Assembly: GCF_009914755.1 (NCBI RefSeq)
Contig: NC_060926.1
Direction: 5' to 3' (one strand)
DNA length: 64,000 nucleotides
Source: the human T2T-CHM13v2.0 reference genome, Homo sapiens
This document shows, piece after piece, positions 30,930-36,814 of this stretch. The translations under genes and the position numbers were made by a program. The first letter of the stretch is position 1. The number at the start of each line of letters is the position of its first letter. The notes under the pieces were generated by a model, which worked only from the letters and a program-made list of their open reading frames with translations, ran no database searches and was not told the origin of the DNA.

Positions 30930-31133
30930 CCAAATATGTTCTATTTTGTCTGGTGAAACAGAATGGCAAGAGCTTTTTAGATACTTTGAGGTTTGGGAAC
31001 AGCACCGTTGAGGGTGAGAAGTTGGTTTTGATGGACTTATTCCATGATGATGCTGGAGAAAGAGTGGATTGCGGTCACACTTGTAGGTACTGAGGCCCCT
31101 CGCTGGAGGCCACAGCCTGCGCTTTTCCCATTG
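30930..31133 (+). repeat. Left arm of ~205-bp inverted duplication
   Basis: Reverse complement of 36610-36814. The ORF track shows the same peptides on opposite strands (NGKSAGCGLQRGASVPTSVT; QWEKRRLWPPARGL). Confidence 0.95.
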
Positions 31134-32643
31134 CAGTGATACCGAACACGTGACTGTAGACGCTTCAGTGCCACCAAAGCGTTGTCTCTTTGGAGAAGTC
31201 CAGTTGTGGAACTGGAAGAGCAAGGAGGTTGAAAGGCCAGGAGCCTTTCCCACATGGACGTGTGGGGGCCCCACGTGCCTTCTTATAGGACTGCTCCCTA
31301 AAGGGCAGAAATGTGTGTCTGTTGGGAGCAGGGTGTCCCATTGCAGAAGCTCTCCTAATGTGATGTCAGGAGCCTCCTCTCCCCAGGCAGGCGAAAGAGA
31401 GCGTGCAGGCTGCCCCGTGGCAGCACGTCATTAGAAGGGCTGGGAGTCATGGGCACCAAGGGAGCAGGGACCACCCTCTGCCCCTTGGTGTGAGATGAGA
31501 GAGATGGCACTTGGTCTGGCTGCTCTATGCAGCTTGATCAAAGAGATTCAGGATCAGTTTAGCCCACAAGGTCCCTGTTTGTTGGATACAAGTTATGTAT
31601 CATCATGAACTCACCTTGTATTGACAGGAAAGTTATATTCAATTGGAGTTGAACTCTAGGTAAATGAGACCAGAAGCATCAGTTTCCGAAGAATAGATAA
31701 GGTCTGGGAAAGAAGACGGCAAGGGAAACTGAAAGCTTTATTTCCTGCTTTGTCTGAAAAACCCTGCCGCCTTCCTCTAGAGGAAATGATGTGGGAAAAT
31801 AAGCAATAATTAACCATGTTATTATGCGGCAATAAATAATTACAAGAATTGCTGCTGTAAATAATATTTCTCTAAGTTGTTTAGAATATGGTGAGGATCT
31901 TGTGGATAAGTTAATGACTTTTGGATGGTTACTTTGGCTGGGCAGAAGTAAGACCTTGTTTGGGTCTTCAGAGTAAAAATTCAGGAAACATGGAGGTGGT
32001 TACTGAGCGAGCCTTAACCAGTTGGTGAGTCCCTTGTGAAGTATTCCTGGAAGACATAAGATCTTAGAAAATTTCAACTTGTAGGCTCCTGCCCAACGTT
32101 ATCGAGTTTATTTGTGGCATCCAGCATCTTTGGTAAAATTGGCACATCATATAATTTCCCTGTTTCCCAGGCCGGTGCAGATGATAAATATTTAAAATAT
32201 GGACTCTAATGAGTGCCTGCCCGAGCCAACCAAGACCCTTTTGCAGCCCTCTGACAGCAGAGGAACTTGATTTGGAAACAGATTGCAGGAGATGCGAGTG
32301 CAGAGTGGGGTGGGGAAGGGTGGTCTTTTTGAGGTAAGAACAGACTATTTTTCCCTTTCTCTTTCCATCTCTTTCTTTTGTATTCTGGGCCACTTCTTTT
32401 TCTCCTCTCCCCCGCGGTGCACCAGGCGGCAGGGTGGGGCGGGCGACCCACGTGGAGCGCCTTCCATGGGAGGCGCTTCCCTGCCCCCTGGTGGCCGGAG
32501 GAGGGATTTGTCATGAGGCTCCGCTCAGAGCGAACGACAGCTGGGGGTGCATTTTCTGGGCTATTTGAGCCATGGAGCTGGGCCCAAAACATTTACAAAA
32601 GTTTCTTTTCCCACCTTAATTTTCGCTTTGTGTTTTCCTTAAG

Positions 32644-32770
32644 TCCTTCCGGTTCCCGACCTTCAACACCTAAAAGTGATTCAGAATTGGTCAGCAAGTC
32701 CACGGAAAGGACAGGGCAGAAGAACCCAGAAATGCTTTGGCTGTGGGGAGAGCTGCCGCAGGCTGCTAAG
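32644..32770 (+). CDS. LPIN1: Lipin-1 CE5 (PSGSRPSTPKSDSELVSKSTERTGQKNPEMLWLWGELPQAAK)
   Basis: Lipin motifs PSTPKSDSEL and WxWGELP; ttaag| acceptor, AAG|gtgaga donor, 127 nt. Confidence 0.97.
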
Positions 32771-33006
32771 GTGAGAGTCTCTTCAATTCTGCCACGGACC
32801 GAAGATTTCTAACTCAGCTTAAATTACATGGAATTAGTATCATAGCATAGCCAAGAAACACAGCTACCAGGAGCCAGAGGTAAACCAAAATATATTAAGG
32901 GTTAGCCTTGAATGTTGGAATTACTTTCTTCCACGTTACCAACATTATAGAGAGGTCTCATTGCTTTTGTAGATTTTAAACCTATGGGATTCCTCTTAGG
33001 ATTTAC

Positions 33007-33306
33007 TTTTTTTTTTTTTTCTTGAGACAGAGTCTCACTCTGTCACCCGGGCTGGAGGGCAATGGCTCTATCTTGGCTCACTGCAACCTCTGCCTCCCAG
33101 GTTCAAGCGATTCTCCTGCTTCAGCCTCCCGAGTAGCTGGGATTACAGGCGCATGCCACCACGCCCCACTAATTTTTGTATTTTTAGTAGAGACGGGGTT
33201 TCACCGTGTTGGCCAGGCTGGTCTTGAACTGCTGACCTCAAGTGACCCGCCTGCCTCTGCCTCCCAAAGTGCTGGGATTATAAGCGTGAGCTGCCGTGCC
33301 CAGCCA
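33007..33306 (-). mobile_element. AluSx-like
   Basis: Full dimer, ctgacctcaagtgacc, degenerate TSD aggat(t/c)tac. Confidence 0.9.
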
Positions 33307-33769: not shown

Positions 33770-33960
33770 CAGGTTATTCTGGGTTTGAGTCCTCACTGCA
33801 CCGCTTGCTAAAAAGGTGACCTTGGGCAAATGAGTAGACTTCCCTGAACCTCAGTGTCTTCATCTGTAAAACTGTGAGAAAATGACAGAATTGTTGTGAG
33901 GTTAGAAGGGCTAATGTAGGTATGTGAAGTATCTGGCACCTGTAGGCCCTCTGAATATTT
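33770..33960 (+). mobile_element. MIR fragment
   Basis: gtgaccttgggcaaatgag...cctcagtgtcttcatctgtaaaa. Confidence 0.7.
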
Positions 33961-35325
33961 GCATTCTTTCTCCTTGGCTGTGGTACATGCACGCTGAGCC
34001 CCAGTTTCCCTATCTTGGATATGCAGTGGGTTTACATGTAGGTACATAACTGGTTCAGCAAATATGTTTCTAAAAACATGAAATGAACACAATCTTTTCT
34101 TTCAAGAAATTTTATTTGGTATGCTAATGTATTATAAGCATCTTGAATTATGTTATTATATCACAAGCTTTAAAAAATATTGTAAGGTCCTTAGAAGATG
34201 CTATAGCCTCTTGCATCCCCAATAAATGTTTGTAATATGAATGAATGAGTGAGTGAGTGAGTGAATGACTATTGAAAACATCCCTTATAAAGAGTCAAGA
34301 TGGGCAGCTTTTTGGAGAGTAGTCTGTTGAGGCCAAAGTTGTGGATCCATTTCCTCTCTAGGTTATATTTAGATTTCATAGAAAATGCTGATTTACCTGT
34401 CCACAGCTATGGTGCTGACCCAGCCAACTCTCTTTGCAAGTTTATGTCGTTAGTTGCTGGAGAAACAGCATGGAAGTGCAAATCCATCACTTCTTCTGGC
34501 AAAATAGTTGTAACCACAGATTTTCTGTAGCATTGTTTTTATTTGCAATTGAAGCTGTTTGATCAGATAGAGAAGTGAATACTTTCTCCCCTCTTTTTAG
34601 CCCATGAATTGCATTTTGGTTTTTGTTTGAATAAATCTTTTCTGTAACTGGAAATCCCTCTGGCGGTAGAATCAGAAATGCTAATTTCTCACTCACGTGA
34701 ACCAACTGTCACCAAATCTTTACTTATTCACTCATGTTTTGGGAATAAACTTTATTGAAATATACATACAGAGAAATACACACATTGTAAATGTATAGCT
34801 CAATACATTTTCACAGCAGGAACAGATCTGTGCAGCGTGCACCCAGACCGAGAAGCAGAGCATGACCAGCAGCATGGAAACCCCCACTCTTTGCGGTCAC
34901 TGCTCAGACTGACCCCTCTGCTCCCTGCAAGGGGAAACTTGATCTTAGCAACAGAGATTAGTTTTGCAAGATTCATTCATGTTGTTGGTGTAGCTGTAAT
35001 TCATTTATTCTCATGGCCACTGAGAATCCCAGTGTGTGTGAAAAGACTTGTAGTCTAACAGCATTTAGGGTGCTCCTGCCTGTTGGCATTGCTAATCTCA
35101 CTTCTCTTTGGCAGTTGATGTTTCACAGGAAAGTTCATTTGCTTTGGACCTAATATTCTTGGTTTCTGGACTTTTTGGCAGGTATAGAAATCACCAGGTG
35201 ATTGTTGAGGCTTAAAAGTCCCTGCCTACTTTTGATTACTTGTTCTCCTTGGGTCACTCAGTTTTTCTGGTTGCCTTTGTGCTGACCTTGTCTCTCTCTC
35301 TGTCCCTCTCTCCTCTTTGCTCTAG

Positions 35326-35632
35326 TCTTCTTCTCCACACAAGATGAAAGAGTCCAGCCCATTGAGCAGTAGAAAAATTTGTGATAAAAGTCACTTTCAG
35401 GCCATTCACAGCGAATCTTCAGACACTTTTAGTGACCAATCGCCAACTCTGGTCGGTGGGGCACTTTTGGACCAGAACAAGCCTCAGACAGAAATGCAGT
35501 TTGTGAATGAAGAAGACCTGGAGACCTTAGGAGCAGCAGCGCCACTCTTGCCCATGATCGAGGAGCTCAAACCCCCCTCTGCCAGTGTAGTCCAGACAGC
35601 AAACAAGACGGATTCTCCTTCCAGGAAAAGAG
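35326..35632 (+). CDS. LPIN1: Lipin-1 CE6 (SSSPHKMKESSPLSSRKICDKSHFQAIHSE...DSPSRKR)
   Basis: Long pyrimidine tract plus tag|, G|gtacca donor, 307 nt, matches ORF 35344..35673. Confidence 0.95.
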
Positions 35633-36609
35633 GTACCAAGGCTGGGGCTTCCCGGCTCTTTTTCTGTTCATAGTTTGTGCTCACTCTACACATGACAGGT
35701 CCTTTCCAAAGTTCCAAGGAAACTGAGGTAGAAACTGAACCGTGACAATGATCATGTTCAGTCTGAGCTCTTCAGCAGAATATATTAATTATCGGAATTT
35801 AGTCATAGGAAATCAGACATGAAGAAGGCCTTGAGGATCATGTAGCAAACTTCATTTTACACACTGAGGCTGCTCGCTGAGACCTGGGAGAGTTAAGTCC
35901 TTTCCAGCACACCATGGGACCCATAAGTGTGACTTTTATAAAGCTGATTATTAGGTTAATCCTGGCCACCTCTCTCCTTGCCCTGCGTTGCTTTCCAGCC
36001 CCTTACCCACTGTAATTTCTGCATATCATTTATCATGATTTCAAATGATCATTATTTTATTGATTTATTTTTGCCTGACTCCCCCATAGAATATGTGCTG
36101 TCTGAGATCAAGAGTCTTTTCTATCTAACTTGCCTTTCTCTCCTCGGCGCTTGGCATAGTGGTTGGCACACAGTGGGTGCTCTGTGTTGGTTTAATGCAC
36201 TCCTGGCTGTGTGTTAGTATCAACGATGCCAGGCCTGATCTCCATCCACCCAGCAGCTTCGTGTGGTTTTCTAGAATTATATGGACCAATTACATCATTT
36301 TCTGCTAGAAGTAAAGAGGACATTTGAAGTCATCATGGCCAGTGTCTGACAATGCACAGTGTGGGATGCTTTGCCTCGGGGTATTGATGGGGAAGTGCCT
36401 AATAAAAGCTTTTATCGTTTCATAATAAGTGTAATAATAATGGTAATAGCCTCAATGCGTTTAGTGCTCAGTACACTTCAGGCACTTTACAGAGGAGGAA
36501 TGAGGCTCAGCAAGTTAACTAACTTGATCCAGGCCACACGATGGTGGATGACGGCCCTGGTTTGTGGACCTTGGTGGTCTACGGTCACGTTGTACTGCCC
36601 ACCATTTTC

Positions 36610-36814
36610 CAATGGGAAAAGCGCAGGCTGTGGCCTCCAGCGAGGGGCCTCGGTACCTACAAGTGTGACCTCAATCCACTCTTTCTCCAGCAACATCATG
36701 GAATAAGTCCATCAAAACCACCTCACCCTCAACGGTACTGTGCCCAAACCTCAAAGTATTTGTCTAAAAAGCTCTTGCCATTCTGTTTTACCAGACAAAA
36801 TAGAACACACTTGG
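36610..36814 (-). repeat. Right arm of ~205-bp inverted duplication
   Basis: Hand alignment to 30930-31133 gives ~8-9 substitutions and 2 short indels. Confidence 0.95.

What the first reader, a model, noticed from the sequence alone, without database searches (positions are those of the whole stretch)
30930..36814. Non-Alu ~205-bp inverted duplication bracketing CE5-CE6: a candidate long-range RNA duplex
Seen: 30930-31133 is the reverse complement of 36610-36814, 5.5 kb away, with ~8-9 substitutions and two short indels. It has a 42-bp perfect core (61 bp counting one U-G pair) and a weaker extension (acgtgac.gtagac..ccaccaa) to about 31177/36571. As sense RNA, two differences are G-U pairs and three are A-C mismatches, the ADAR-preferred geometry. 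Identity far exceeds that of the neighbouring old repeats, and I recognise no transposon family in it. The right arm ends 140 nt before the CE7 acceptor, and the left arm starts 1.6 kb after the beta exon. Inference: pairing would loop out CE5+CE6 (434 nt). That could yield a circRNA, or a frameshifted skip (phase 2 joined to phase 1) subject to NMD, i.e. a structure-encoded control of lipin-1 level. It could also be an editing or endo-siRNA substrate. At DNA level it is a substrate for a two-exon inversion and may be homogenised by gene conversion.
Basis: partly seen in the sequence, partly recalled or inferred. Interest (0 to 1): 0.8.

Follow-up and report, generated by a model that had tools for sequence, protein, structure and literature searches.

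The report
Unique inverted duplication flanking two LPIN1 exons
Two LPIN1 introns carry a short stretch and its mirror-image copy, found nowhere else in the genome, that could pair in the RNA and loop out two coding exons, but nothing seen here shows that the cell uses it.

Summary
Window 30930-31133 is the reverse complement of 36610-36814: 193 of 201 aligned bases are identical, with two indels of 4 and 3 nt. Whole-genome searches of the T2T assembly found only these two copies. The same tool did detect an old 67-80%-identical repeat 75 nt upstream, so this is not a transposon family. Rfam gives no match to the arms.

As sense RNA the arms form about 194 bp of near-perfect duplex. They are the only complementary pair linking the intron before CE5 with the intron after CE6. 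Skipping both exons removes 434 nt and gives a stop codon at the junction.

Nothing points to selection. The differences are scattered as chance predicts (P = 0.81). The transitions give 2 G-U and 3 A-C, which shows no bias. I found no published CE5-CE6 circle, editing site or inversion.

The best reading is a catarrhine- or hominoid-age, neutrally drifting local inverted duplication. It belongs to the known minority class of unique exon-flanking complementary sequences. It probably causes low-level editing, back-splicing or skipping. The age, which arm is the copy, and activity in cells could not be tested here.

The parts
30930..31133 (+). Left arm of the inverted duplication, in the intron between the beta exon and CE5 (1613 nt after the beta donor, 1511 nt before the CE5 acceptor)
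   Evidence: Only one other copy exists in the genome.
36610..36814 (-). Right arm, the reverse-complement copy, in the intron between CE6 and CE7 (978 nt after the CE6 donor, 140 nt before the CE7 acceptor)
31134..31161 (+). Inner end of the left copy: a 14-nt unalignable patch (31134-31147), then a 14-nt extension (31148-31161) that matches the right copy at 13 of 14 bases
   Evidence: 11 of 500 shuffles reach the score. No local template for the patch was found.
36577..36609 (-). Inner end of the right copy: a 19-nt unalignable patch (36591-36609), then the 14-nt extension (36577-36590)
32644..32770 (+). CE5 (127 nt, starts in phase 2), the first of the two exons enclosed by the arms
   Evidence: Hub annotation. 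AG/GT splice sites and phase checked.
35326..35632 (+). CE6 (307 nt), the second enclosed exon. CE5 + CE6 = 434 nt.
   Evidence: Hub annotation.
36954..37047 (+). CE7 (starts in phase 1), the acceptor brought close by the stem. Joining beta or CE4 to CE7 gives a stop codon at the junction (aa 277 or 241).
33002..33305 (-). Antisense Alu in the CE5-CE6 intron. It pairs with sense Alus at 37149-37445 and 40784-41084, so it interleaves with the unique pair and may compete with it.
37149..37445 (+). Sense Alu in the CE7-CE8 intron, partner of the Alu at 33002-33305 (85% identity, 298 nt). This pair encloses CE6+CE7.

Best explanation
This is a genuine two-copy local inverted duplication of about 205-235 bp. 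One intronic segment of LPIN1 was copied in reverse orientation into another intron 5.5 kb away. The event was most likely a single replication template switch or a templated break repair in a catarrhine or hominoid ancestor, and the copies have drifted neutrally since.

Both copies lie in the same pre-mRNA, so they can form a near-perfect duplex of about 194 bp whose loop holds the constitutive exons CE5 and CE6. I expect that some LPIN1 transcripts form this stem before the upstream intron is removed. In those transcripts the stem would be bound and edited by nuclear ADAR. It would also modestly favour the 35632->32644 back-splice (a 434-nt circle) or the frameshifting two-exon skip that NMD removes. 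The effect on lipin-1 output would be small.

Shown here: existence, uniqueness, pairing potential, geometry, the frameshift, and the lack of any selection signature. Inferred: origin mechanism, age, duplex formation in cells, editing, circle and skip.
For: Two copies only: BLAST of each arm against the 3.1-Gb assembly found 2 of 2 candidates, the arm and its partner. A 29-mer with up to 3 mismatches matched 2 places against 0 for the reversed control. Sensitivity control: the same tool returned 38 dispersed hits at 67-95% identity (all but one at 67-80%) for window 30630-30855, while the arm part of that query hit only its partner. The right flank has no repeat family. Rfam finds nothing on the arms but does find the neighbouring Alus. 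No reading frame is shared by the two arms.

Pairing: 194 bp, -368/-369 kcal/mol, against -84 +/- 6 for shuffled partners. Each arm alone folds no better than its shuffles (-61 and -44). It is the only complementary pair linking these two introns.

Neutral drift: 8 substitutions in 201 sites, JC distance 0.041. The longest difference-free run (43) is reached in 81% of random scatters. G-U against A-C is 2:3. That distance gives 2.0% per copy (95% CI 0.9-3.9%), which on recalled primate divergence values falls between the gorilla and New World monkey splits, with the centre near the gibbon split.

Mechanism class: unique complementary elements make up 4.69% of exon-flanking inverted repeats (PMC13019944, section 4 read). 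Repeats of 30-40 nt are enough for circularisation (PMC4201285, passages). Looped-out exons are included less often, and long duplexes are strongly enriched in A-to-I sites (PMC8052449, passages).
Against: There is no direct evidence that the duplex forms or acts in cells. No paper names a circLPIN1 (0 papers). No main text pairs LPIN1 with coordinates near the predicted back-splice. The one LPIN1 circRNA I found in print (PMC5798954, table passage) maps by its span to exons 18671-20991, which lie between inverted Alus, not to CE5-CE6.

The downstream intron is short (1321 nt), and the left arm is transcribed 5.5 kb before its partner, so ordinary splicing may remove the upstream intron first. 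Not every inverted pair supports circularisation (PMC4201285). An interleaved Alu pair of greater total stability (-517 kcal/mol, 291 bp) may compete.

The age rests on 8 substitutions and on recalled calibration values. It would be wrong if gene conversion has occurred. The inner end carries more rearrangement (a 14/19-nt patch) than the core, which a simple single-step copy does not explain.
Confidence: 0.6

Rival explanations
1. Inert duplication. The DNA repeat is real, but the RNA stem essentially never forms or has no measurable effect, because the upstream intron is spliced out co-transcriptionally or because helicases and RNA-binding proteins keep the arms apart.
For: The left arm is made 5.5 kb before the right arm, and the CE5 acceptor appears only 1.5 kb after the left arm (coordinates). 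CE5 and CE6 are exons of the selected RefSeq transcript (hub table). No circle, editing or skip is reported in print. Not every inverted pair works (PMC4201285).
Against: The net stabilisation is very large (about -264 kcal/mol over the self-folds). Alu pairs at similar distances that are shorter or less perfect are captured by SPLASH and affect splicing (PMC13019944).
Confidence: 0.2
2. An older duplication whose core is kept alike by intrachromosomal gene conversion, or by selection on both copies, so that the 4% divergence understates its age.
For: The core is 96% identical while the inner end is disrupted by a patch and possibly a further 10-nt indel. Close inverted repeats are known substrates for conversion (general knowledge).
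Against: The differences are spread evenly with no conversion-tract pattern (P = 0.81). The longest perfect block is only 42 nt, which is short for efficient mammalian homologous recombination (recalled). The extension that can be aligned is itself 13 of 14 identical, so it is no more diverged than the core.
Confidence: 0.1
3. One reading: a selected structural element that tunes lipin-1 dosage through an NMD-coupled two-exon skip, or that produces a functional 434-nt circRNA.
For: The geometry suits loop-out: the right arm ends 140 nt from the CE7 acceptor. The skip gives an immediate stop. It is the only complementary pair across these two exons. LPIN1 is a tightly regulated gene (general knowledge).
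Against: There is no excess of structure-preserving G-U changes (2 of 5 transitions) and no conserved core beyond chance. The apparent age is young, whereas lipin-1 is ancient. No isoform or circle is reported. The circle has no rolling open frame (longest open stretch 234 codons in four turns).
Confidence: 0.07
4. The arms are ordinary, diverged copies of an interspersed repeat family, or an assembly artefact.
For: No Dfam/RepeatMasker library was available, so a very old or very small family cannot be formally excluded.
Against: Only 2 copies were found in three independent whole-genome searches, using a tool that does find 67-80% repeats next door. There is no Rfam hit. The arms differ by 8 substitutions and 2 indels, unlike a collapsed or duplicated assembly error. 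A family copy pair would not be this similar while every other copy is undetectable.
Confidence: 0.03

Closest known systems
Unique (non-repeat) intronic complementary sequences flanking exons, as catalogued beside inverted Alu pairs (Lee et al. 2026, PMC13019944; the concept goes back to Zhang et al. 2014, recalled)
   Same: A reverse-complementary pair in two introns of one pre-mRNA, predicted to loop out the exons between them. It is not derived from Alu or L1. This class makes up 4.69% of exon-flanking inverted alignments.
   Different: This pair spans two exons, whereas that screen compared only an intron with the next downstream intron. It is much closer to perfect (96%) than typical Alu pairs (77-86% here). 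No skipping or duplex data exist for it.
Inverted Alu pairs that drive circRNA formation (ZKSCAN1, HIPK3; Liang & Wilusz 2014, PMC4201285)
   Same: Base pairing between flanking introns brings a downstream donor next to an upstream acceptor. 30-40 nt is enough, so a 61-bp helix within 194 bp is more than long enough.
   Different: The arms are not Alu, and no circle has been documented. The arms lie 1.5 kb and 1.0 kb from the back-splice sites. Sequence content matters beyond stability, so activity cannot be assumed.
Mouse Sry circular RNA locus (Capel 1993 and Dubin 1995, as cited in PMC4201285)
   Same: A locus-specific inverted duplication that is not a transposon flanks exonic sequence, and it is proposed to form a stem that promotes circularisation.
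   Different: The Sry arms are longer than 15 kb and flank a single exon with a documented circle. Here the arms are about 0.2 kb and the circle is hypothetical.
Conserved long-range pre-mRNA structures (PCCRs, Kalmykova et al. 2021, PMC8052449; ATE1, PMC7797038 seen in a search listing only)
   Same: Long-range intronic pairing that loops out exons. Such structures are enriched around circRNAs and A-to-I sites.
   Different: PCCRs are short (tens of nt) and defined by conservation and compensatory changes. This pair is long, apparently young, and shows no compensatory signal. LPIN1 is not mentioned in that paper's main text.
Inverted low-copy repeats that mediate inversions by non-allelic homologous recombination
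   Same: Inverted homologous arms flank a 5.5-kb segment. Recombination between them would invert CE5-CE6 and inactivate LPIN1.
   Different: The arms are far shorter than classical segmental duplications, and the longest perfect block is 42 nt, so the expected rate is very low. In the listing of the 9 papers that hold LPIN1, rhabdomyolysis and inversion, no title or abstract reports an LPIN1 inversion; none was opened.

Membership tests
Exon-flanking intronic complementary sequences (loop-out / back-splice promoting pairs) | A reverse-complementary pair located in introns on both sides of one or more exons of the same transcript | tested here: met
   Arms at 30930-31133 and 36610-36814 enclose exons 32644-32770 and 35326-35632 (hub annotation).
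Exon-flanking intronic complementary sequences (loop-out / back-splice promoting pairs) | Predicted duplex clearly more stable than chance and than the arms' own folds | tested here: met
   -368/-369 kcal/mol and 194 bp, against -84 +/- 6 for shuffled partners. Self-folds are -61 and -44.
Exon-flanking intronic complementary sequences (loop-out / back-splice promoting pairs) | Duplex forms in cells (cross-link or ligation reads, editing) | not testable with these tools
   No RIC-seq, PARIS, SPLASH or editing data are at hand. LPIN1 is absent from the main texts of PMC8052449 and PMC10691357 and from the 2 held supplements of PMC13019944.
Exon-flanking intronic complementary sequences (loop-out / back-splice promoting pairs) | Associated back-splice or skip junction observed | tested here: inconclusive
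   Literature only: 0 papers for circLPIN1 names and no matching coordinates in main texts. The LPIN1 circle found in print maps to other exons. circRNA databases could not be queried.
Alu / SINE or other interspersed repeat family | Many dispersed copies in the genome | tested here: not met
   2 copies only. A control repeat 75 nt away gave 38 hits in the same kind of search.
Alu / SINE or other interspersed repeat family | Similarity to SRP/7SL or tRNA-derived models | tested here: not met
   Rfam E-value scan of 30500-37500: no match on the arms, while both neighbouring Alus matched RF00017.
DNA transposon with terminal inverted repeats | The inverted termini bound a mobile unit (transposase or non-autonomous core), not host exons | tested here: not met
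   The 5.5 kb between the arms holds two in-frame LPIN1 coding exons in gene order. No other copies of the termini exist.
Conserved long-range RNA structure (PCCR-type) | Both arms conserved across vertebrates, with compensatory substitutions | not testable with these tools
   No other mammalian genome is available. Within the pair, the transitions give 2 G-U and 3 A-C, so there is no structure-preserving bias.
Segmental duplication / inverted low-copy repeat | At least 1 kb long at 90% identity or more (usual definition, recalled) | tested here: not met
   Homology is 204-205 nt, or about 232-238 nt with the extension.
Hairpin small-RNA precursor (miRNA / endo-siRNA locus) | Short loop, or a match to a known precursor family | tested here: not met
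   The loop is 5476 nt and the arms have no Rfam match.

The most novel reading that the evidence does not exclude
The pair is an ape- or Old-World-primate-specific RNA switch. When the 194-bp stem forms, which ADAR, ILF3/NF90 or DHX9 could modulate, CE5+CE6 are removed as a 434-nt circle and the remaining transcript is destroyed by NMD. Lipin-1 dosage in muscle, fat and liver would then be set partly by an RNA structure born from a single duplication. The same arms would also be a hidden source of exon-inverting loss-of-function alleles in unsolved LPIN1 rhabdomyolysis.
Probability: 0.07. Interest if true: 0.7.

Novelty: new member of a known kind. Interest (0 to 1): 0.3.

Why it matters
LPIN1 loss causes severe childhood rhabdomyolysis, and its dosage affects lipid metabolism. 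A near-perfect 200-bp intronic duplex that brackets two frameshifting exons is a clean test case, free of Alu, for how much one long-range stem changes splicing, circle formation and editing. Alu pairs are hard to interpret because each Alu has many possible partners, whereas this pair has exactly one. It also marks a place where short-read diagnostics would miss an inversion. If it proves neutral, as I expect, it is one more example of the roughly 5% of exon-flanking complementary pairs that are not transposon-derived.

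Tried and rejected
1. Multi-copy repeat: rejected.

2. Known RNA family: rejected.

3. Coding or pseudo-exon origin: both arms were read from stop to stop in six frames. 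The 4-nt and 3-nt indels break any shared frame, and this was not pursued.

4. Profile search of the genome: I built a sequence-only model R1 from the two arms, but the tool does not accept models for this genome.

5. Local template for the unalignable patch: no 9-mer from either patch occurs elsewhere in 30000-38000 apart from chance hits in shared context.

6. Outer-flank homology ('TTGCT...' in the MAFFT alignment): not above chance (346 of 500 shuffles).

7. Conversion tract or selected core: rejected as unsupported.

8. Published evidence for a CE5-CE6 circle, LPIN1 intronic editing or an LPIN1 inversion: nothing relevant was found. Most hits were seen only as search listings. circRNA_021412/miR-1972/LPIN1 papers, as I recall them (none was opened), concern a circle from another gene.

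10. RNAcofold on the arms timed out. duplexfold and a linker hairpin fold were used instead.

11. Comparative genomics: none of the collections holds a non-human mammal, so age, polarity and concerted evolution remain untested.

Full report
**Observation**

Window 30930-31133 (+) and 36610-36814 (read as reverse complement) are clearly homologous. The repeat finder splits the pair into three colinear blocks of 52, 38 and 114 nt at 94-96% complementarity. A global alignment gives 193 identical positions, 8 substitutions (5 transitions, 3 transversions) and two indels of 4 and 3 nt (MAFFT agrees). BLAST against the whole 3.1-Gb assembly scores the pair at E = 2.3e-79.

- The 42-nt perfect core is 31092-31133.
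- The 61-bp helix that includes one G-U is 31073-31133.
- In sense RNA the mismatches are 2 G-U, 3 A-C and 3 others (derived).

Beyond the inner end there is an unalignable patch: 14 nt on the left (31134-31147) against 19 nt on the right (36591-36609). After it, 13 of 14 bases match (31148-31161 against 36577-36590). 11 of 500 shuffles reach that score without any constraint on position, so the duplication probably extends to about 232-238 nt. The outer flanks are not homologous (346 of 500 shuffles reach the score).

**What it is not**

It is not an interspersed repeat.
- BLAST with each arm plus flanks found 2 candidates in the genome, the arm and its partner.
- A 29-mer from the core, with up to 3 mismatches allowed, matched those 2 places. 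The reversed control matched 0.
- The tool can see old repeats. A 1.5-kb query around the left arm returned 38 dispersed hits at 67-95% identity (all but one at 67-80%), all to window 30630-30855, an old repeat 75 nt upstream. The arm portion of that query hit only its partner. The right arm's surroundings gave one small unrelated hit.
- An Rfam scan of 30500-37500 matched both neighbouring Alus to the SRP model but found nothing on the arms.
- No reading frame is shared by the two arms.
- A transposon with terminal inverted repeats is excluded, because the interior holds two LPIN1 coding exons in gene order.
- An assembly artefact is unlikely, because the copies differ by 8 substitutions and 2 indels.

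**Context**

A self-comparison of the window shows that the arms are the only complementary pair linking the intron before CE5 with the intron after CE6. Every other repeated segment of that size is an Alu with 12-21 partners in the window.

An antisense Alu at 33002-33305 pairs with sense Alus at 37149-37445 (85%) and 40784-41084 (84%). The first of these pairs interleaves with the unique pair and encloses CE6+CE7.

**RNA pairing**

The arms form 194 intermolecular base pairs at -368 kcal/mol. Shuffled partners give -84 +/- 6. Joined by a short linker, the fold is the same stem at -369 kcal/mol. Each arm alone folds no better than its shuffles (-61 and -44 kcal/mol). The antisense strand pairs equally well (-374). 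The interleaved Alu pair is longer and more stable overall (-517 kcal/mol, 291 bp) but less perfect.

**Consequences for the message**

All annotated exons have AG/GT splice sites, and the in-window coding sequence is open (749 aa). CE5 starts in phase 2 and CE7 in phase 1. Removing CE5+CE6 takes out 434 nt and places a stop codon at the new junction, at aa 277 with the beta exon or aa 241 without it. By the usual rule, which I infer applies here, such a transcript would be an NMD target. A 434-nt circle has no endless reading frame: the longest open stretch is 234 codons in four turns.

**Signs of selection or conversion**

There are none.
- The 10 difference events are scattered as chance predicts. 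A difference-free run of 43 or more occurs in 81% of random scatters.
- The 5 transitions give 2 G-U and 3 A-C in sense RNA (binomial p = 1.0). The 'ADAR-preferred' mismatches are therefore simply what unselected transitions produce. In the antisense transcript the ratio merely flips.

**Age**

The JC distance is 0.041, or 2.0% per copy (Poisson 95% CI 0.9-3.9%). Against primate divergence values that I recall and did not compute here, this puts the duplication between the gorilla and New World monkey splits, with the centre near the gibbon split, provided no gene conversion has occurred. Within the window, Alus differ from one another by 14-23%, so the pair is clearly younger than most of them. 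No non-human genome was available, so the age, the direction of copying and concerted evolution are untested.

**Origin (inferred)**

I infer a single copy-and-insert event in reverse orientation, by a replication template switch or templated break repair. The rearranged patch at one end fits error-prone synthesis near a junction, but no local template for the patch was found.

**Literature**

- No paper in the library names a circLPIN1 (0 papers).
- None pairs LPIN1 with coordinates near the predicted back-splice.
- LPIN1 with ADAR and A-to-I gave 10 papers. By title and abstract, none concerns this intron (listing only).
- LPIN1 with rhabdomyolysis and inversion gave 9 papers, none of which reports an LPIN1 inversion by title or abstract (listing only).
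- One LPIN1 circRNA is tabulated in epidermal cells at hg19 chr2:11905658-11907984 (PMC5798954, passage). Its span of 2326 nt is close to the 2321 nt of window 18671-20991. On that basis, and on an approximate offset that partly uses a recalled hg19 coordinate, I assign it to the start-codon exon plus the next exon. These two exons lie between inverted Alus at 17330-17584 and 21789-22042.

On the general mechanism:
- Among exon-flanking inverted alignments, 86.32% are Alu, 8.99% are L1 and 4.69% are 'generally unique complementary elements'. Inverted Alu pairs are associated with exon skipping (PMC13019944, abstract and section 4 part 1). That screen compares only adjacent introns, so this two-exon pair falls outside it. 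LPIN1 is absent from its 2 held supplement files.
- Repeats of 30-40 nt are enough for circularisation, yet not every pair works. Mouse Sry is the classical locus-specific inverted duplication (PMC4201285, passages).
- Conserved complementary pairs surround circRNAs, and long duplexes are strongly enriched in A-to-I sites (PMC8052449, passages).
- LPIN1 is not in the main text of PMC8052449 or of PMC10691357. Their supplements were not examined.

**Verdict**

The functional reading is plausible in mechanism but has no evidence behind it, and the sequence shows no mark of selection.

I rank the explanations as follows:
- 0.6: a primate-age, neutrally drifting local inverted duplication that forms an intronic duplex in some transcripts, with minor editing, circle or skip by-products.
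- 0.2: the pair is inert in RNA.
- 0.1: an older pair homogenised by conversion.
- 0.07: a real dosage switch.
- 0.03: a repeat family or an artefact.

It is a new member of a known kind. Its value is as a one-partner test case and as a possible blind spot for inversions in LPIN1 diagnostics.

Noticed in passing
window 33002-33305 (-) with 37149-37445 (+) and 40784-41084 (+): An inverted Alu pair (84-85% identity, about 300 nt; -517 kcal/mol, 291 bp for the first pair) encloses CE6+CE7 (401 nt, also frameshifting, first stop at aa 403). It interleaves with the unique pair, so the two stems may compete or form a pseudoknot-like arrangement.
   Followed up: partly
window 28942-29145: An AT-rich, self-complementary and tandemly repeated block (a palindrome at 73-79% over 129-193 nt, with direct copies at 84%) ends 65 nt before the acceptor of the alternatively spliced beta exon (29210). 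A local hairpin there could bear on beta-exon choice.
   Followed up: no
window 18671-20991, with Alus at 17330-17584 (-) and 21789-22042 (+): A published LPIN1 circRNA (hg19 chr2:11905658-11907984, PMC5798954) appears by its span to correspond to the start-codon exon plus the next exon. These two exons lie between an inverted Alu pair (77% identity over 256 nt).
   Followed up: partly
window 30630-30855: An old interspersed repeat with at least 38 dispersed genomic matches at 67-95% identity (all but one 67-80%) lies 75 nt upstream of the left arm. The family was not named because no repeat library was available. It served as the sensitivity control.
   Followed up: partly
window 29357-29436 and 29444-29517: An 80-nt tandem direct duplication (77.5% identity) begins 40 nt after the beta exon donor.
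   Followed up: no
window 20577-20658: The annotated MIR548S locus is an 82-nt self-inverted palindrome (85% self-complementary). It sits 238 nt before the acceptor of exon 20896-20991, inside the region circularised in the published LPIN1 circRNA.
   Followed up: no
window 11166-11319 and 21620-21771: A weak direct similarity (68% over 158 nt) links two intronic segments. It is probably two copies of an old repeat next to the Alu at 21789.
   Followed up: no
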